From: an uncultured Mycoplasmatota bacterium
GTDB lineage: Bacteria > Bacillota_I > Bacilli_A > RF39 > UBA660
DNA length: 64,000 nt
Assembly: GCA_947652325.1 (NCBI GenBank)
Contig: CANTCQ010000003.1
Span: forward strand, 64,890-128,889
Reading direction: 5' to 3'
In this document: piece by piece, positions 32,894-44,036 of the stretch
How positions within the stretch are numbered: position 1 is the stretch's first letter
How the letters are laid out: every line of letters begins with the position of its first letter
Notes under the pieces: generated by a model
What the model was told of the DNA's origin: nothing
What the model saw: the letters and a program-made list of their open reading frames with translations, nothing else
Database searches by the model: none
Translations under genes and position numbers: made by a program

Positions 32894-34168
32894 ATGTTTG
32901 TAGATGAAACGACAATAAAATTAATTGCAGGGAAAGGAGGAGACGGTTGTACCTCTTTTCGGCGCGAAAAATACATTCCAATGGGAGGACCAGATGGAGG
33001 AAATGGTGGAAAAGGAGGAGACATCATTTTCGAAGTCGATAAAAGTTTAAAAACGCTAATTGATTTGCGTTACAAAAAAATAGTCAAGGCAGACAAAGGG
33101 GTAAATGGCAAAGGAAGTACCAGGAATGGTGCTAATGCAGAAGATATAATTTTAAAAGTACCAGAAGGAACAACTATTTACAATGCGGACAATAATCTAA
33201 TACTTGCTGATTTAACAAAAGATAAAGAACGAATTATAATTGCACATGGGGGCCGTGGTGGTCGCGGCAACAAAGCTTTCGCAACACACAATGAACCAGC
33301 TCCCAAATTTAGTGAACTTGGATGTCCTGGTGAAGAAGTTTTCGTTCATTTAGAATTGAAAGTTATGGCAGATGTAGGATTAATTGGCATGCCAAGCGTT
33401 GGAAAAAGCACGATTTTAAGTCTTATCAGTGCGGCAAAACCAAAAATTGGCGCCTACCATTTTACAACGTTAAATCCAAATTTAGGAGTCGTAAACCTAA
33501 AAGACAATAGAACATTTGTCATGGCAGACTTACCAGGTTTAATTGAAGGAGCTCATGAGGGAAGTGGTTTAGGTCATAAATTTTTGCGGCATGCAATGCG
33601 AACCAAAATACTTGCTCATGTAATTGATATGGGTTCATTTGAAGGAAGAGACCCAATAGAAGATTATCAAAAAATAAGAAGAGAAATCGAAAATTATGAT
33701 GATAAATTAAAAAAGAAAAAAGAAATTGTAATTGCCAACAAAATGGATTTAGAAAACGCTAAAGAAAATCTAAAATCTTTTAAAAAAATATACCCTAGTT
33801 TACCTATTTTTGAAATCAGTGCTTTAAACAATGAAGGATTTGAACAATTACTTATCTATTTAGCTAATTTAGTAGAAACTTTACCAGAAGAAGACATCTA
33901 CGAAAAAGAAGATTATGAAAGTTATATTGTGTATAAATTTCAAAATGAACGCCCTTATACCATTCGAAGAGATAACGATGTCTGGATTTTAGAAGGAGAA
34001 GAAATTGAGCGTTTGTTTAAAATGACAAGATTTACAGAAGAAGAAGCCGTTTTACGTTTTGCAAGAAAATTAAAAGGCATGGGGGTAGAAGAAGAATTAG
34101 AACGTTTAGGAGCAAAACGCGGTGATGATGTGCAAATATTAGACTATATCTTCGAATTCAAAGAATAA
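32894..34168 (+). CDS. obg: GTPase Obg/CgtA
   Basis: Gly-rich Obg fold ([21 protein letters not shown]), G1 motif [22 protein letters not shown] and a C-terminal OCT domain. Confidence 0.97.
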
Positions 34169-34486
34169 TTTATCGCCGATATGCAAATTTTGACTATAGT
34201 TTTTAGGAAGTTCCAAAATGCTGGTCTTTTTTAAAGGCAAATGAATTTTAATAATTTTGTTTTTGGAAACATTTCTTTCTAAAAAAACAATTTCATTTTT
34301 TTCATTTATTCCTATTACATCAATATTTTCTTTCATGAAAAAAGTATGAATACTATTACATTTCGGAAACAACATACCAAAATTTATATTGGTTTTGCCA
34401 ATCAATCCATATAAACGTTCTTGAAATGATACAGCTTCTACAATTTTTATATAAGTTTTATTTAACAAAAGTTTCAAAAATATCAC
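34139..34486 (-). CDS. DUF192-family protein
   Basis: 115 aa containing RLYGLIGKT...[22 protein letters not shown]. Its 3' end overlaps the obg 3' end by 30 nt (convergent). Confidence 0.55.
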
Positions 34487-34886
34487 CTAATAAATCATAT
34501 CATATAAAAAATAAAAAAATGAGCGAAAAAGCCAAAATATGCTACCTTATTTGACAATAAATATGTAATACTAAAAAAACTTTGAGTCTGGTTTGTTAAA
34601 TAAATCAAATATTATGGTATTGAAATAGTCGAAAAATCAAAACTGAGAAAAAAGGCTAGAAATTATTGAAAAAAAGAATATTTAATTTATCGGAAATAAC
34701 CAAATTGTTATTTAAAAAAAATGAAATATGTATTACAACCTAAAATAATTATAATAAACAAAAGCATTTTCTAGTAATAACAGTATTCTAAAAATTAGAA
34801 ATGAAACAGAAAATTTTTTGTACAAGAATTTAAAATAACAAGTACTTATTGGAGTGCTTTTTTTCATGCAAAATGATTTCCTATAT

Positions 34887-34915
34887 TTGACTTTACTATG
34901 AAATTAGTTTATATT
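34887..34915 (+). promoter_or_regulatory. sigmaA-type promoter of the tad operon
   Basis: TTGACT-N17-TATATT, 22 nt upstream of the flp ATG. Confidence 0.65.
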
Positions 34916-34937
34916 TATTATGATAGTAGGTGGAGAT

Positions 34938-35147
34938 ATGAAAAGTTTGAATACGAAAGGGCAAGCTTTAGTAGAATATGTACTCATTGTGACTATAATT
35001 AGTGTCATTACTATTGCAATTGTAAACTATTTTGGCGGTTATGTGAAAGATTCTATCACAAAAACTTCTTGTTCTTTAGTAGACCAAGAGTATGTTCCAG
35101 GCAGTAAACCAGGAGAAGGGGAATGTAAAGAAAAAAAGAATGAATAA
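34938..35147 (+). CDS. flp: Flp-family type IVb pilin
   Basis: 69 aa. MKSLNTKG|QALVEYVLIVTIISVITIAIV fits the Flp G/xxxxEY processing motif followed by a hydrophobic helix. The start is set at the Met after the SD aggtggag. Confidence 0.8.
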   Translation: MKSLNTKGQALVEYVLIVTIISVITIAIVNYFGGYVKDSITKTSCSLVDQEYVPGSKPGEGECKEKKNE

Positions 35148-35160
35148 ATGAGGTGATAAT

Positions 35161-35511
35161 ATGCAATTATCCAAGAAAGGGCAAGCTTTGGTTGAATTTG
35201 TAATAATATTACCTATATTTGTTTTTATGATATTTGGAGTCATAGATTTAGGGAAAATACTTTATATGAAAAATAATTTAGAAAGCCAAATGGATGACAT
35301 TATTACTGCTTACAAAGAGGGAGAAACAAAAAACGAAATAATCGAAAAATTAAAATTAAAAAAAGAAAACATTATCCTTTCTATTACAGAAGAACAAAAA
35401 TATTTAAACTTCCAAATAGAAAAAGAAACAGACCTTATTACTCCTGGTTTAAATAGCTTATTAGGAAATCCTTATAAAGTATCGGCGAATCGAGTGATTT
35501 ACGATGAATAA
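35161..35511 (+). CDS. tadE: TadE-like pseudopilin
   Basis: MQLSKKGQALVEFVIILPIFVFMIFGVIDLG matches the TadE N-terminal domain pattern. Confidence 0.75.
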   Translation: MQLSKKGQALVEFVIILPIFVFMIFGVIDLGKILYMKNNLESQMDDIITAYKEGETKNEIIEKLKLKKENIILSITEEQKYLNFQIEKETDLITPGLNSLLGNPYKVSANRVIYDE

Positions 35512-42123: not shown

Positions 42124-42155
42124 AAAGGTAAACACAATAAATGAACTTATGCAAT

Positions 42156-42183
42156 TTGACAAAAAAGAAATATATGGTAAAAT
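42156..42183 (+). promoter_or_regulatory. sigmaA-type promoter candidate with extended -10
   Basis: TTGACA-N16-TAAAAT, preceded by TGg. Confidence 0.5.
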
Positions 42184-42216
42184 AAAACCCACATTTTTGA
42201 AAAAAGGGGTTTTTTT
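42184..42216 (+). terminator. terminator-like hairpin whose 3' arm contains the SD of the second sigma gene
   Basis: AAAACCC...GGGGTTTTTTT. GGGG at 42206-42209 is the only SD-like element before the ATG at 42220. Confidence 0.6.
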
Positions 42217-42219
42217 AAT

Positions 42220-43863
42220 ATGGATTTAGAAGAAATATTAGCATTTTTAAATAATATTGATAAAAAAAAAGAAGGAGACTTTGAAAAAAAATGGCATTCA
42301 TTTGAAAATATTTATTTAAGTGAAGAACAAATAAATATTTTAATAAAAGATCCAATATGCCAAAGAGTATCAAAGTATATATTTGAATCTATAGAAGAAA
42401 TTTCAGAAAATTCCTATGAAAAATATATAAAAAATAATAATTTATTAAGAATTTTAAACAATATCTACATAGAAGAAAATAGTAAAAAAATGCAAAAATC
42501 ACTTTCTCAAGAGGAAGAGTTAGAATTATTAAAACAAATGGCAAATGGTGATAAACAAGCAAGAGCGAAGTTAATTGAAAAGAATTTGGGTTTAGTCAAA
42601 TTTTGTATCAATAATCTTGCAAAGTATTATAATTTGTCAAATATTTCTCTTGCTAATTTATATGATGATTTATTTCAAGAAGGAGTAGAAGCTCTTATAA
42701 AAAGTTTAGATAAATTTGATTATACAAAAGGATACAGAATAGCAACTTATACAATTTGGAGTATTAAAGCGGCCATTAATCAATATTTAGAAAAACAAAG
42801 ATTTCAATTAAAAGTTAGTAGAAATAAAATGGTTGAAATTAAAAAAATGCATAAAATCATCGGAGAATTATCTTTAGAGGGATATAATAATTTTTCATCC
42901 CAAACACTAACTGAAAAATTAGAAGTTGCAAAGGAACAACTAGCTGAAAATATACAATTATGTCAAAGAACAATATATTTAGATTCTTTTTTAGAAGAAA
43001 CAAATTTACATGAAGTGTTAAAAAATGATGGAATAGAAATTGAAAAAGATTATGAAAAAAAAGAATTTTATCAAACATTCAGAGAGATAATTAAAAATTG
43101 TGTTACAAATAAAATTATAAAAGAGCAAGAATTCCTAGTAATTTCTTTGCGTTATGGGCTAGAAGATGGAGAGCCAAAAAAATACAAGGAAATTGGAAAA
43201 ATAATAGGTAAAACTTGGCAAAGAGCACAACAAATTCATGATGAAGGTATAAAAAAATTGAAAAAATATAATAAAATAAAAGAATTTGGTCAAGAAAATA
43301 ATTTATATATGAATAGAAAAAGAAAACCAAAGATTATACATTCAATTGCAGAGTTAAAAGAGAAATATCCACCTGTAACCGATGAACAAATACAAGAAGG
43401 ATTGTCCTATTTAACAAAAAAACAACAAGAAGTAATATATAATTGTTTAAAAGAACAACAAGAAATTAAATCCTCATCAAAGGAATACCAAAGTTTAATA
43501 AATGGAATAAGAAAACTAGAGGAGTACATAGTAAATAAATTAAAAATAACTCCCCAATTAGAAACGGAAATATTGGGGAATCTAAAACTTTTAACAATAA
43601 CAACTTGGCAAGAAGAATTAAAAGAACAACAAAAAAGTCTAATTCATAGAAAATACCAAACTGTATATGGAGATATAATTCAATCACAAGAATTAGAAAA
43701 CAGTATAAATCAAGCTTTTGAAAATCAAAAGTTAGAAAGTTCATTTAGAAGTAAAAAATTACAAATAGAAGAAGCATTTTTTATTATATTAATAGAAAGA
43801 TTAAAAAAAACAACAGAGGAATTTGAATATAAAAATTTACTTCTTATATTTTTAGAATATTAG
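42220..43863 (+). CDS. RpoD-like sigma-70 family protein with ~110-aa N-terminal and ~180-aa C-terminal extensions
   Basis: Region 2 (LIEKNLGLVKFC...DLFQEGVEALIKSLDKFD...YRIATYTIWSIKAAINQYL), a region 3-like segment and region 4 (EQEFLVISLRYGLEDGEPKKYKEIGKIIGKTWQRAQQIHDEGIKKL). Confidence 0.8.
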   Translation: MDLEEILAFLNNIDKKKEGDFEKKWHSFENIYLSEEQINILIKDPICQRVSKYIFESIEEISENSYEKYIKNNNLLRILNNIYIEENSKKMQKSLSQEEELELLKQMANGDKQARAKLIEKNLGLVKFCINNLAKYYNLSNISLANLYDDLFQEGVEALIKSLDKFDYTKGYRIATYTIWSIKAAINQYLEKQRFQLKVSRNKMVEIKKMHKIIGELSLEGYNNFSSQTLTEKLEVAKEQLAENIQLCQRTIYLDSFLEETNLHEVLKNDGIEIEKDYEKKEFYQTFREIIKNCVTNKIIKEQEFLVISLRYGLEDGEPKKYKEIGKIIGKTWQRAQQIHDEGIKKLKKYNKIKEFGQENNLYMNRKRKPKIIHSIAELKEKYPPVTDEQIQEGLSYLTKKQQEVIYNCLKEQQEIKSSSKEYQSLINGIRKLEEYIVNKLKITPQLETEILGNLKLLTITTWQEELKEQQKSLIHRKYQTVYGDIIQSQELENSINQAFENQKLESSFRSKKLQIEEAFFIILIERLKKTTEEFEYKNLLLIFLEY

Positions 43864-44006
43864 AAAAAAGAGTAAAAGAAACATATCCAGGAATATCAAA
43901 AAAACAAACGCAAGAAATACGAAATAGAGTAATAGAAAATTATAGTGGGCAACCGCAATTAATTATAAAACTTGCGCTTCATTCTAAACAGTAATAAAGG
44001 AAAAAA

Positions 44007-44036
44007 GTCTTAAAAAGAAGTTTTAAGGCTTTTTGT
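44007..44036 (+). terminator. rho-independent terminator
   Basis: gtcttaaaa-agaag-ttttaaggc stem (one G-U pair) followed by a T run. Confidence 0.75.

What the first reader, a model, noticed from the sequence alone, without database searches (positions are those of the whole stretch)
34139..44036. Tad/Flp pilus operon plus two oversized sigma-factor genes form a ~9.9-kb insert between obg and ruvA
The flanks follow B. subtilis order: spoIVFA-spoIVFB-rplU-ysxB-rpmA-[spo0B slot]-obg on one side and ruvA-ruvB-queA-tgt on the other. A self-contained block sits between them. It runs: DUF192 gene (minus strand), 450 bp of noncoding DNA, a sigmaA-type promoter, a Flp-like pilin, two TadE-like pseudopilins, TadZ, TadA/CpaF, TadB, TadC and a terminator. 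A 760-aa sigmaE/K-like gene, a 547-aa RpoD-like sigma gene and a final terminator follow. I cannot place a Tad operon physically coupled to two private sigma factors of divergent architecture in any described system. My hypothesis is that the sigmas are a dedicated control module for the pilus, or that the pilus belongs to a developmental regulon; the control could be sporulation-linked and phase-variable. There is no secretin, as expected for a monoderm. There is also no prepilin peptidase, integrase, IS element or tRNA at the edges.
Basis: partly seen in the sequence, partly recalled or inferred. Interest (0 to 1): 0.8.

Follow-up and report, generated by a model that had tools for sequence, protein, structure and literature searches.

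The report
Tad pilus operon beside giant sigma factors
An ordinary Gram-positive-type Tad/Flp pilus operon lies next to two members of an apparently undescribed family of oversized RNA polymerase sigma factors, whose long tails are tandem copies of sigma region 4 plus a new end domain; the evidence that these sigma factors control the pilus is weak.

Summary
Window 34139-44036 carries DUF192 (minus strand), a 451-bp spacer, a sigmaA-type promoter, flp, two tadE, tadZ, tadA, tadB, tadC and a weak terminator, followed by two oversized sigma genes and a terminator.

One correction: the "547-aa" gene is a 591-aa gene with a 1-bp deletion in this assembly.

The main result is the sigma genes. Both belong to a family of about 60 clusters at 50% identity, up to 1,607 aa, all from low-GC contigs. 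The two with organism labels are uncultured gut MAGs. The architecture is a sigma-70 domain (SigE/K-like or RpoD-like), then 0-18 tandem repeats derived from sigma region 4 (hhalign 95%), then a roughly 140-aa helical C-terminal domain with no PDB match. I found no name or paper for it.

The "private pilus regulator" idea is weakly supported:
- The sigma genes are separate transcription units.
- The tad promoter is sigmaA-type whether or not giant sigmas are present.
- Sister-clade tad operons lack giant sigmas.
- One subfamily sits in the dcw cluster instead.
- The adjacency arose about twice, not six times.

Verdict: a new variant of sigma factor. Its link to the pilus is unproven.

The parts
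34139..34486 (-). DUF192 gene (115 aa), convergent with obg and overlapping it by 30 nt
   Evidence: Pfam DUF192, 35.8 bits. The same obg/DUF192 arrangement occurs in L008 and L023. It is absent from L010. It is probably a neighbour rather than a Tad component.
34487..34937 (.). 451-bp non-coding spacer. Its 3' end carries the conserved flp promoter: TTGACT 34887-34892, 17-nt spacer, TATATT 34910-34915.
   Evidence: No ORF longer than 44 aa lies here. There is no homology to the genes that occupy this slot in L008 or L009. The promoter block TTGACTTTA...TTAGTTTATATT is conserved in four species.
34938..35147 (+). Flp-type prepilin (69 aa from ATG 34938): MKSLNTKG/QALVEYVLIV..., with two conserved Cys
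   Evidence: Pfam Flp_Fap E=1.5e-4, below the gathering score. The G/xxxxEY motif is present. The mature sequence GQALVEYVLI..SVIT..YFGGY[LV]KD..TK.SC is recognisable in at least 11 related loci.
35161..35511 (+). TadE-like minor pilin 1 (116 aa): MQLSKKG/QALVEF
   Evidence: Pfam TadE, 43 bits. Translation. It shares the leader-coding DNA with flp (repeat D1).
35504..35884 (+). TadE/TadF-like minor pilin 2 (126 aa)
   Evidence: Pfam TadE 28.7 bits and Tad 25.2 bits.
35896..36696 (+). TadZ/CpaE-position ParA/MinD-type ATPase (266 aa). ATPase domain only.
   Evidence: Pfam AAA_31 63.6 bits and CbiA 38.5 bits. Conserved at this position in all related loci.
36689..38029 (+). TadA/CpaF secretion ATPase (446 aa)
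   Evidence: Pfam T2SSE, 202.8 bits. NCBIfam TadA-family model TIGR03819 scores 317 bits, below its cutoff of 373.
38049..39053 (+). TadB platform protein (334 aa)
   Evidence: Pfam T2SSF, 46.2 bits.
39053..39757 (+). TadC platform protein (234 aa)
   Evidence: Pfam T2SSF, 54.6 bits. It is 44-79% identical to TadC in five other loci.
39755..39782 (+). Weak intrinsic terminator of the tad operon: an 8-bp hairpin that includes the tadC stop codon, then UUAUUUUUUU
   Evidence: -7.1 kcal/mol, z = -3.75. Four of the five other loci (L006, L009, L010, L013) have a comparable hairpin or T run after tadC; L008 has only a T-rich stretch.
39841..42123 (+). Giant sigma 1 (760 aa). Residues 1-224: SigK/SigE-like sigma domain without a pro-sequence. 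225-335: domain A. About 336-405, 464-545 and 549-618: three sigma4-derived repeats. 619-760: family C-terminal domain.
   Evidence: Pfam r2 48 bits and r4 44.5 bits. NCBIfam SigK 180 bits against a cutoff of 252. Domain maps. AF2 of residues 453-760 gives pLDDT 90. A TTGTAA-18-TAGAAT promoter with TG lies upstream.
42156..42183 (+). Near-consensus sigmaA-type promoter for sigma 2: TTGACA, 16-nt spacer with TG, TAAAAT
   Evidence: 11 of 12 consensus matches plus an extended -10.
42220..43994 (+). Giant sigma 2. It is frameshifted in this window, where the ORF 42220-43863 gives 547 aa. The intact form is 591 aa. It has a diverged RpoD-like domain (r2 about 147-194, r4 about 302-349) and the family C-terminal domain at about 461-591. 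No clear repeats.
   Evidence: Pfam and NCBIfam. The C-domain HMM gives E=4e-27 on the 591-aa form. A 1-bp deletion between 43842 and 43843 removes the last ~50 aa of that domain.
44002..44036 (+). Intrinsic terminator after sigma 2: 14-bp stem followed by a U run
   Evidence: -11.9 kcal/mol, z = -3.1. Identical in L002-L004.

Best explanation
The block contains two separate things that lie side by side.

(1) A vertically inherited, monoderm-type Flp/Tad (type IVc) pilus operon.
- Shown: the gene set flp, tadE, tadE, tadZ, tadA, tadB, tadC; a conserved sigmaA-type promoter; a weak terminator after tadC.
- Inferred: it builds an adhesive pilus for gut colonisation, and the prepilins are cleaved by a peptidase encoded elsewhere.

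(2) Two independently transcribed members of a lineage-restricted family that appears to be undescribed. I call them giant sigma factors.
- Shown: a complete sigma-70 domain (a SigE/K-derived or RpoD-derived paralogue, not the canonical factor); often a conserved linker domain A; 0-18 tandem ~70-aa repeats derived from sigma region 4; a conserved ~140-aa six-helix C-terminal domain with no known fold relative.
- Shown: the tadC-ruvA interval is a site where this family has expanded, with one to five genes per species.
- Inferred: they act as alternative sigma factors. The sigma4-repeat array forms an extended spacer, and the C-terminal domain docks to a conserved partner that regulates or localises the factor. 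This would resemble the cis-acting C-terminal extensions of some ECF sigma factors.
- Their regulon is unknown. It is not demonstrably the tad operon.
For: Tad operon:
- HMM assignments.
- The same operon, with a recognisably conserved pilin, occurs in 31 metagenome loci and 6 other contigs.
- Sigma70-type promoter elements lie upstream of flp (or tadE) in all lineages examined; four species share TTGACT-17-TATATT.
- A hairpin plus T run follows tadC.

Giant sigma family:
- HMMER with the 536-aa tail of sigma 1 against 1.84 billion representatives gave 60 hits, 29 of them at E<=1e-10. Most are 900-1,607 aa.
- All six sigma-bearing giants scanned with Pfam carry Sigma70 r2 and r4, and four also r3. 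A seventh hit, P0028, has repeats only.
- There are 320 repeat copies in 53 proteins.
- The repeat profile's PDB hits are almost all sigma region 4.
- 14 of 45 single repeats hit Pfam Sigma70_r4.
- The iterated repeat HMM hits the proteins' own genuine region 4.
- hhalign of the repeat profile against a genuine sigma4 profile gives 95% probability, E=2.7e-8, over 67 columns.
- The C-domain is at the extreme C-terminus of 35 proteins, including both window genes.
- AF2 of the C-domain gives pLDDT 94 and pTM 0.82. There is no Foldseek or PDB-sequence relative.

Not the canonical factors:
- All scores fall below NCBIfam equivalog cutoffs.
- Normal-size SigK, and SpoIIGA with SigE, exist in related genomes.

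Separate transcription units.

Not a phage or defence element.

No name in any source, and no paper found.
Against: - Function was not tested, and no expression data exist.
- The spacer-plus-docking-domain role of the tail is inference from architecture alone.
- Several members are disrupted: the window's sigma-2 frameshift and in-frame TAA codons in L006/L011 and L008. Some copies may be decaying.
- A giant gene directly after tadC also occurs at a different chromosomal site (L010). This is hard to dismiss as pure chance and keeps a functional link to Tad alive.
- Most RpoD-like giants keep the canonical TRERIRQIE -35-recognition helix. They could in principle read the sigmaA-like tad promoter.
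Confidence: 0.6

Rival explanations
1. The giant sigma factors are a dedicated control module for the Tad pilus. They either transcribe the tad operon or are regulated by the pilus machine, for example by being held at the TadZ/TadA platform through the C-terminal domain and released on assembly or surface contact.
For: - A giant gene directly follows tadC in six loci, including one with different flanks.
- L039, the sister of L010 in the Tad tree, has three tandem RpoD-like sigma genes 5 kb downstream of tadC.
- RpoD-like giants keep the sigmaA-type -35 recognition helix, and the tad promoter is sigmaA-like.
Against: - There are only about two independent adjacencies.
- Sister-clade tad operons with the same pilin and the same type of promoter have no giant sigma downstream: L023, L021, L024, L027, L041, L017.
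- Full family members also occur in the dcw cluster and elsewhere without tad.
- A terminator and separate promoters lie between tad and the sigma genes.
- Sigma 1 is SigE/K-like, but no sigmaE/K-type promoter lies in the block.
- Sigma 2's recognition helix has diverged to TWQRAQQIH.
Confidence: 0.15
2. The giant sigmas are developmental regulators tied to sporulation or the cell envelope rather than to the pilus. On this reading they are extra SigE/K-derived and RpoD-derived paralogues acting during spore formation or septation.
For: - The N-terminal domain of sigma 1 is closest to SigK and SigE: 180 and 150 bits. P0014 is likewise.
- One subfamily sits between spoVE/ftsW and murG in the dcw cluster in two species.
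- In L010 the giants are followed by a spoVE-like gene and spoIIP.
- Related loci carry spoIVA, cotE, sigK and spoIIGA-sigE within a few kb of tad.
- The host is a spore-former: spoIVFA/B and spoIVB are in the window.
Against: - In small genomes many genes lie near sporulation genes by chance.
- No sigmaE/K-type promoters were found locally, and they are under-represented in the window.
- Sigma 1 lacks the pro-sequence that ties SigE and SigK to compartment signalling (alignment range).
- There are no expression data.
Confidence: 0.15
3. The oversized tails are runaway tandem duplications in dispensable, decaying paralogues. The genes have little or no current function.
For: - The window's sigma 2 is frameshifted.
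- In-frame stop codons split the RpoD-like giants in L006/L011 and L008.
- Copy number and repeat number differ in every species.
Against: - The C-terminal domain is conserved at 25-60% identity across about 35 proteins, always at the very end.
- Repeats and C-domain give confident AF2 models: pLDDT 90-94.
- ORFs of 760-1,607 aa stay open in 25% GC DNA.
- The intact 591-aa form of sigma 2 predominates: 18 contigs against 3.
Confidence: 0.07
4. The whole 9.9-kb block is a recently acquired genomic island.
For: - The Tad locus is classically a 'widespread colonisation island'.
- A tad locus in another member of the Erysipelotrichales was judged to be horizontally acquired (PMC12786226).
Against: - Composition is uniform with the flanks.
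- There is no integrase, IS element or tRNA nearby.
- There are no credible flanking repeats. The one 23-nt pair lies inside coding DNA.
- The operon sits at the same obg-ruvA site across a clade with TadC down to about 56% identity.
Confidence: 0.03

Closest known systems
Monoderm Tad/Flp (type IVc) pilus loci, e.g. Bifidobacterium breve tad2003, Cutibacterium acnes, Bulleidia extructa (PMC12786226)
   Same: Same components: Flp pilin with G/xxxxEY, TadE-like minor pilins, TadZ-type ParA ATPase, TadA/CpaF, TadB and TadC. No secretin. Gut or host-associated Gram-positive hosts.
   Different: - No prepilin peptidase (TadV) in the locus or in the 64-kb window.
- TadZ has the ATPase domain only.
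- The pilin carries a conserved Cys pair.
- The chromosomal site between obg and ruvA is fixed across a clade.
- No described Tad locus that I could find is followed by sigma-factor genes.
ECF sigma factors with fused C-terminal regulatory extensions, e.g. groups ECF41/42/56 (PMC3426412, PMC7826278, PMC8999054)
   Same: A sigma factor carrying a cis-acting C-terminal extension in place of a separate anti-sigma factor. This is the best analogy for how the tail might work.
   Different: - The sigma domains here are group-1/2-like (r1.2-r2-r3-r4) or SigE/K-like, not ECF.
- The extension is 230-1,200 aa.
- It is made of sigma4-derived tandem repeats plus a novel domain, not SnoaL, TPR or similar domains.
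Sporulation sigma factors SigK and SigE
   Same: Residues 1-224 of sigma 1 align end to end with the mature SigK and SigE proteins. The region 2.4 and 4.2 motifs are similar (ATYATRCIHNEILM, SRIERK).
   Different: - 180 and 150 bits against cutoffs of 252-349.
- No pro-sequence.
- A 536-aa tail.
- Canonical SigK and SigE exist separately in related genomes.
Primary and group-2 sigma factors (RpoD/SigA)
   Same: Sigma 2 and most giant relatives have the r1.2-r2-r3-r4 order. Many keep the TRERIRQIE recognition helix.
   Different: - Scores are 107-288 bits against a cutoff of 572.
- Sigma 2's recognition helix has diverged.
- N-terminal and C-terminal extensions are present.
- They occur as tandem paralogue arrays.
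FlgM/FliA coupling of a sigma factor to assembly of a surface appendage
   Same: This is only a conceptual precedent for linking sigma activity to an envelope machine encoded next door.
   Different: - No anti-sigma factor, secretion signal or homology.
- The coupling is not shown here.

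Membership tests
Tad/Flp (type IVc) pilus system | Flp-family major pilin with a short leader and the G/xxxxEY processing motif | tested here: met
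   MKSLNTKG/QALVEY. Pfam Flp_Fap E=1.5e-4, but 22 bits is below the gathering score of 32.2. The motif and mature sequence are recognisable across at least 11 loci.
Tad/Flp (type IVc) pilus system | TadE/TadF-type minor pilins | tested here: met
   Pfam TadE at 43 and 28.7 bits, both above the gathering score of 22.9.
Tad/Flp (type IVc) pilus system | TadA/CpaF ATPase plus two T2SSF platform proteins (TadB, TadC) | tested here: met
   T2SSE 202.8 bits; T2SSF 46.2 and 54.6 bits.
Tad/Flp (type IVc) pilus system | TadZ/CpaE localisation ATPase | tested here: inconclusive
   A ParA/MinD-type ATPase (AAA_31, 63.6 bits) sits in the conserved position. It is only 266 aa with no N-terminal receiver-like domain. 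The closest NCBIfam model is below its cutoff.
Tad/Flp (type IVc) pilus system | Dedicated prepilin peptidase (TadV/CpaA, Peptidase_A24) | tested here: not met
   There is none in the operon in any of the related loci. No A24-like polytopic protein occurs in the 64-kb window. It may be encoded elsewhere in the genome.
Tad/Flp (type IVc) pilus system | Outer-membrane secretin (RcpA/CpaC). Defining only for diderm systems. | tested here: not met
   Absent. This is expected for a monoderm.
Sigma-70 family | Region 2 and region 4 domains in the correct order | tested here: met
   Sigma 1: r2 48 bits, r4 44.5 bits. Sigma 2: r2 35.9 bits, r4 29.9 bits. All are above the gathering scores.
Sigma-70 family | Binds core RNA polymerase and directs promoter-specific initiation | not testable with these tools
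   This needs biochemistry.
SigK / SigE sporulation sigma factors | Score above the NCBIfam equivalog or subfamily cutoff, and an N-terminal pro-sequence | tested here: not met
   SigK 180 and 170 bits against cutoffs of 252 and 299. SigE 150 and 144 bits against 339 and 349. The alignment starts at model position 22-29, so there is no pro-peptide.
Primary sigma factor RpoD/SigA | Score above the equivalog cutoff | tested here: not met
   Sigma 2 scores 107 bits against 572. Giant relatives score 245-288 bits.
ECF sigma factors with C-terminal extension | ECF-type minimal sigma2-sigma4 core | tested here: not met
   The best models are SigK/E and RpoD. Only the generic TIGR02937 superfamily model passes its cutoff. 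Relatives have r1.2 and r3.
MzaA (MZA anti-phage system sigma factor) | Full-length match to the MzaA model | tested here: not met
   Only the sigma domain matches: 39-143 bits in PADLOC, and 50-83 bits against a cutoff of 800 in NCBIfam.
Proposed 'giant sigma' family (sigma domain + sigma4-derived repeats + C-terminal domain) | Conserved ~140-aa helical domain at the extreme C-terminus | tested here: met
   Sigma 1 residues 619-759, E=2e-52. Sigma 2 (591-aa form) residues 464-587, E=4e-27. It is truncated in the window's frameshifted copy.
Proposed 'giant sigma' family (sigma domain + sigma4-derived repeats + C-terminal domain) | Tandem sigma4-derived repeats between the sigma domain and the C-domain | tested here: met
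   Sigma 1 has three. Sigma 2 has none at E<1e-3, so it is a minimal member. The homology between the repeats and sigma4 is supported.

The most novel reading that the evidence does not exclude
The giant sigma factors are a new way of wiring transcription to a surface machine. The conserved C-terminal domain docks on the cytoplasmic face of the Tad apparatus (TadZ, TadA or the platform). The sigma4-repeat array acts as a long tether or decoy. Pilus assembly, retraction or surface contact then releases or activates the sigma factor. This would be an appendage-coupled sigma switch without a separate anti-sigma factor.
Probability: 0.12. Interest if true: 0.85.

Novelty: new variant of a known kind. 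Interest (0 to 1): 0.62.

Why it matters
Sigma factors are among the best-studied bacterial proteins. Their known elaborations are N-terminal region 1.1, non-conserved inserts and ECF C-terminal sensor domains. A family that adds up to 18 tandem copies of its own promoter-recognition and flap-binding domain, plus a conserved domain of unknown fold, fits none of these classes.

It raises concrete questions:
- Do the extra sigma4 modules bind the beta-flap, DNA, activators or each other?
- Does repeat number set a physical reach?
- What does the C-terminal domain bind?

The family seems confined to low-GC contigs. The two with organism labels are uncultured gut MAGs, and the related tad loci come from mouse, human and ruminant gut samples. 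In these genomes the family has expanded into tandem paralogue arrays. It may therefore be central to how these organisms regulate development or colonisation.

For the Tad field the result is more modest. It documents a conserved, chromosomally fixed monoderm Tad operon with an unusually conserved Cys-containing Flp pilin. It also gives a testable, though currently weak, candidate for a linked regulator.

Tried and rejected
- The word-indexed protein search with full-length sigma 1 found only the protein itself and one distant sigma. Low-complexity words saturated the candidate list. The index-free HMMER search with the tail alone was what revealed the family.
- The profile search of the 5.8-billion-protein collection with the C-domain alignment returned nothing. 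I treat this as a tool limitation, not as absence.
- Broad C-domain alignments were too divergent for pattern scans.
- The genome scan with a 5-sequence alignment found only 2 species.
- The metagenome scan with subfamily-2 patterns found none.
- Foldseek of the 308-aa multi-domain model and of the C-domain alone gave no hit at E<1. The only weak hits were to sigma4.
- Looked for a pilus-specific or sigmaE/K-type promoter: none.
- Looked for remnants of the genes that occupy the DUF192-flp spacer in relatives: none.
- Looked for island hallmarks (tRNA, integrase, flanking repeats, composition shift): none.
- Looked for DNA-level tandem repeats or a slippery tract that would support phase variation: none.
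- Looked for phage or defence-system membership: only generic sigma-domain hits.
- I could not establish the organism beyond the record title 'uncultured Bacilli bacterium' for a relative. A second record is labelled Muribaculaceae, which is almost certainly a binning or labelling error for a 28% GC contig with obg, ruvA and Tad.

Full report
**1. What is in the sequence**

The window is about 25% GC throughout, with no composition break at 34-44 kb. All genes except DUF192 are on the + strand.

| Coordinates | Assignment | Evidence |
|---|---|---|
| 34139-34486 (-) | DUF192 | 35.8 bits |
| 34938-35147 | Flp-like prepilin | Flp_Fap 22 bits, below gathering |
| 35161-35511 | TadE | 43 bits |
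| 35504-35884 | TadE | 28.7 bits |
| 35896-36696 | ParA/MinD-type ATPase in the TadZ position | AAA_31 63.6 bits |
| 36689-38029 | TadA/CpaF | T2SSE 202.8 bits |
| 38049-39053 | TadB | T2SSF |
| 39053-39757 | TadC | T2SSF |
| 39841-42123 | large sigma ORF | Sigma70_r2 and r4 |
| 42220-43863 | large sigma ORF | Sigma70_r2 and r4 |

- The pilin and both TadE proteins begin with KG/QALVE[YF] or KG/QTLIAF leaders. This is the class-III signal of Flp systems.
- The flanks are as described: spoIVFA/B-like, rplU, prp, rpmA, two ORFs with no hits and obg upstream; ruvA, ruvB, queA and tgt downstream.
- No tRNA or Rfam family occurs anywhere in the 64 kb.
- There is no A24-type polytopic protein.
- There are no convincing repeats flanking the block.

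**2. Correction: sigma 2 is frameshifted here**

The same species occurs on at least 14 metagenome contigs. There the second sigma gene is 591 aa. The window's 547-aa product is identical to it through residue 541 and then diverges.

A DNA alignment shows one missing C (TTCCTT to TTCTT) between window 43842 and 43843. The intact frame would stop at 43994, just before a good terminator at 44002-44034 (-11.9 kcal/mol, z -3.1). The 591-aa form is on 18 contigs and the 547-aa form on 3.

The site is not a repeat tract, so this is a strain mutation or an assembly error, not classical phase variation.

**3. The sigma genes belong to a family that appears to be undescribed**

*Sigma domains.*
- Sigma 1, residues 1-224, align end to end with mature SigK and SigE: 180 and 150 bits, below cutoffs of 252-349. 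There is no pro-sequence.
- Sigma 2 is a diverged RpoD-like protein: 107 bits against a cutoff of 572.

*The tail of sigma 1.* The remaining 536 aa hit nothing in Pfam. An index-free HMMER search of this tail against 1.84 billion representative proteins gave 60 hits, 29 of them at E<=1e-10. Most are 900-1,607 aa with several matched stretches.

All six sigma-bearing hits scanned with Pfam carry a sigma-70 domain. A seventh, P0028, has repeats only. The domain comes in two arrangements:
- at the extreme N-terminus and SigE/K-like (P0014, P0021, P0024, P0046);
- starting near residue 180-230, with regions 1.2 and 3, and RpoD-like (P0011, P0012, P0015, P0016, P0020, P0025 and others).

*Architecture of the tails.*
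- A linker domain A directly after region 4, present in 19 proteins.
- A ~70-aa repeat with consensus ..YsKEEid.ai..Ls..ek.il.lRyG.nLd....WP......YY....kki...L. There are 320 copies in 53 proteins and up to 18 per protein.
- A ~140-aa domain always at the very C-terminus, present in 35 proteins.

Sigma 1 has domain A, three repeats and the C-domain. The 591-aa sigma 2 has no clear repeats but has the C-domain (E=4e-27). The window's frameshift cuts off the last third of that domain.

**4. The repeats are duplicated sigma region 4**

Four independent tests agree.
- A profile of 45 repeats searched against PDB sequences returns almost only sigma-factor region 4. The best E-value is 0.005, aligned to the 4.1 helix LSxREreVLrLRyG.
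- 14 of 45 single repeats hit Pfam Sigma70_r4 and 11 hit r4_2.
- The iterated repeat HMM also hits the genuine region 4 of the same proteins.
- hhalign of the repeat profile against a profile of the family's genuine region 4 gives 95% probability, E=2.7e-8, over 67 columns.

*Structure prediction.*
- AlphaFold2 of residues 453-760 gives pLDDT 90 and is all helical. Each repeat has three short helices, a loop and a long helix.
- The C-domain alone gives pLDDT 94 and pTM 0.82, with six helices.
- Neither model has a Foldseek PDB match at E<1. The only recurring weak hits are to sigma4.
- A PDB sequence-profile search with the C-domain finds nothing meaningful.

*Other checks.*
- Neither protein has a hydrophobic segment.
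- PADLOC and PHROGs hit only the sigma domain.
- IMG/VR has no relative.
- No source gives these proteins a name.
- Five literature searches found nothing on such sigma factors or on Tad-sigma linkage.

**5. Is the family tied to Tad?**

*Sigma-first test.* Genomic context was recovered for nine lineages.

| Locus | Arrangement |
|---|---|
| Window species | tadC, 760 aa, 591 aa, ruvA |
| L006/L011 | tadC, 193+1405 aa, ruvA |
| L008 | tadC, 789 aa, 927 aa, 265+320 aa, 619 aa, a 327-aa protein made of two C-domains, ruvA |
| L009 | tadC, 1447 aa, ruvA |
| L013 | tadC, 1203 aa, ruvA |
| L010 (different site) | tadC, 1607-aa repeat-only protein, 1090-aa sigma, spoVE-like, spoIIP |
| L014, L047 (two species) | spoVE/ftsW, giant sigma, murG, murB, divIB; no tad |
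| L015 | between glycosyltransferase genes and an Asn/Asp-type tRNA-synthetase gene; no tad |

*Tad-first test.* A metagenome scan with a TadC alignment returned 31 loci. I annotated them with local HMMs and Pfam. Operons with TadC 54-61% identical and a recognisably similar pilin have no giant sigma downstream:
- L023: obg, DUF192, tad, then ruvA directly;
- L021: tadC, three small genes including a pilin-like one, ruvA;
- L024: tadC, then a pilin-like gene;
- L027: tadC, yebC;
- L041: tadC, cotE, pfkB, ruvA;
- L017: none within 10 kb.

*Tree.* A neighbour-joining tree of concatenated TadA, TadB and TadC places the obg/ruvA loci that could be included (win, L006, L008, L009) in one clade. L013 was too incomplete to include. 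The sigma-less loci form its sister clade. L010 groups elsewhere, next to L039, which has three normal-length RpoD-like sigma genes 5 kb downstream of tadC, after spoIVA.

The adjacency therefore reflects about two evolutionary events, not six.

**6. Transcription signals**

*tad promoter.*
- Upstream of flp, four giant-sigma-bearing species share TTGACTTTA-N-TTAGTTTATATT, which reads as TTGACT-17-TATATT.
- Sigma-less relatives have TTGACA-17-TATATT, TTTACA-17-TATAAT or TGcTATAAT.
- All of these are sigmaA-type.
- A scan for sigmaE- and sigmaK-type promoters found none in 33.5-44.5 kb, and fewer in the whole window than in shuffles.

*After tadC.*
- tadC is followed by an 8-bp hairpin plus a U run (-7.1 kcal/mol, z -3.75).
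- In most of the other loci a hairpin or T run also follows tadC, and in every locus an AT-rich segment with -10-like (and often -35-like) elements precedes the first sigma gene.
- Sigma 2 has a near-consensus TTGACA-16(TG)-TAAAAT promoter.

The three units (tad, sigma 1, sigma 2) are thus most likely transcribed separately from housekeeping-type promoters.

One caveat applies. Most RpoD-like giants keep the canonical TRERIRQIE.KALRKL recognition helix, so they might read sigmaA-like -35 elements. The window's sigma 2 has TWQRAQQIHDEGIKKL and probably does not.

**7. Relation to canonical factors**

- All giants tested fall below NCBIfam equivalog cutoffs: RpoD 245-288 bits against 572, and SigK/E 186-191 bits against 252-339.
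- Related genomes encode a normal 231-aa SigK (309 bits, with a pro-sequence).
- They also encode SpoIIGA with a 228-aa SigE.
- The giants are therefore extra paralogues, not the organism's SigA, SigE or SigK.
- The same tail sits on two different sigma classes, and gene number varies from one to five in the same interval. This points to recombination among tandem paralogues.

**8. Interpretation**

*Shown.*
- A complete monoderm Tad gene set, apart from the peptidase.
- Its conservation and fixed chromosomal site.
- The family, its architecture and the sigma4 origin of the repeats.
- The lack of any known relative for the C-domain.
- The non-obligatory association with tad.

*Inferred.*
- The proteins are active alternative sigma factors.
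- The repeat array is an extended spacer or decoy.
- The C-domain is a docking or regulatory module.

I put 0.6 on 'two adjacent but separately controlled modules, the second being a new kind of sigma factor of unknown regulon'. Decay accounts for 0.07 and recent horizontal acquisition for 0.03.

**9. Verdict**

The finding is real, and more interesting than a routine Tad locus, but for a somewhat different reason than the one proposed. The headline is the sigma-factor architecture. The coupling to the pilus is a hypothesis that the comparative data weaken but do not exclude.

Noticed in passing
window 43842-43843: A 1-bp deletion (CC to C) truncates sigma 2 to 547 aa and removes the end of its conserved C-terminal domain. 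Other assemblies of the same species have the intact 591-aa gene: 18 contigs against 3.
   Followed up: yes
L006 5736-5738 (also L011); L008 13667-13669: In-frame TAA codons interrupt RpoD-like giant sigma genes in two other species. One lies between region 1.2 and 2.1, the other between regions 2 and 3. The conserved sigma sequence continues in frame after each stop. These could be pseudogenes, strain variants or read-through; I did not resolve which.
   Followed up: partly
L008 16679-17659: A standalone 327-aa protein made of two tandem copies of the giant-sigma C-terminal domain lies between the last sigma gene and ruvA (P0029-like). It is a possible trans-acting partner or competitor.
   Followed up: partly
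L014 10001-13678; L047 3568-7425: One subfamily of giant RpoD-like sigma genes (1225-1285 aa, with domain A, repeats and C-domain) is inserted in the dcw cluster between spoVE/ftsW and murG in two species. It is followed by a 62-aa zinc-finger ORF.
   Followed up: partly
window 16877-17869: A 330-aa ORF upstream of mutS has a Spo0A_C domain at residues 87-171. It has no detectable receiver domain and carries an extra ~160-aa C-terminal region. It is not a canonical Spo0A.
   Followed up: partly
window 30602-31729 and 31865-32695: Two ORFs (375 and 276 aa) occupy the slot between rpmA and obg, where B. subtilis has spo0B. Neither has a Pfam hit. Both are identical in other contigs of the same species (L002, L003); no homologue was detected in the other loci. 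The 375-aa protein looks internally duplicated.
   Followed up: no
window 34938-35147 and related loci L006-L026: The mature Flp pilin is unusually conserved across lineages whose TadC is only about 55-60% identical (GQALVEYVLI..SVIT..YFGGY[LV]KD..TK.SC). It carries two conserved cysteines near the C-terminus, which suggests a disulfide or a metal site.
   Followed up: partly
L034 1967-3395; L039 2635-3327: In more distant relatives the canonical sporulation sigma genes (spoIIGA-sigE in L034, sigK in L039) lie only about 3 kb upstream of the tad operon. L039 also has spoIVA and three tandem RpoD-like sigma genes within 9 kb downstream.
   Followed up: partly
window 34459-34481 and 44390-44412: A 23-nt direct repeat (20 of 23 identical) brackets almost exactly the 9.9-kb block. 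Both copies lie inside coding DNA (DUF192 and ruvA). It is most likely a chance match in AT-rich sequence.
   Followed up: partly
window 1-64000: No Rfam family reaches its gathering score and no tRNA is found in 64 kb. The ribosomal-protein and tRNA-synthetase genes (rplU, proS) have no detectable leaders.
   Followed up: no
L012/L008 (CAYSFO010000006.1): The record title assigns this 28% GC contig, which carries obg, ruvAB and Tad, to 'uncultured Muribaculaceae' (Bacteroidota). This is very likely a binning or labelling error.
   Followed up: no
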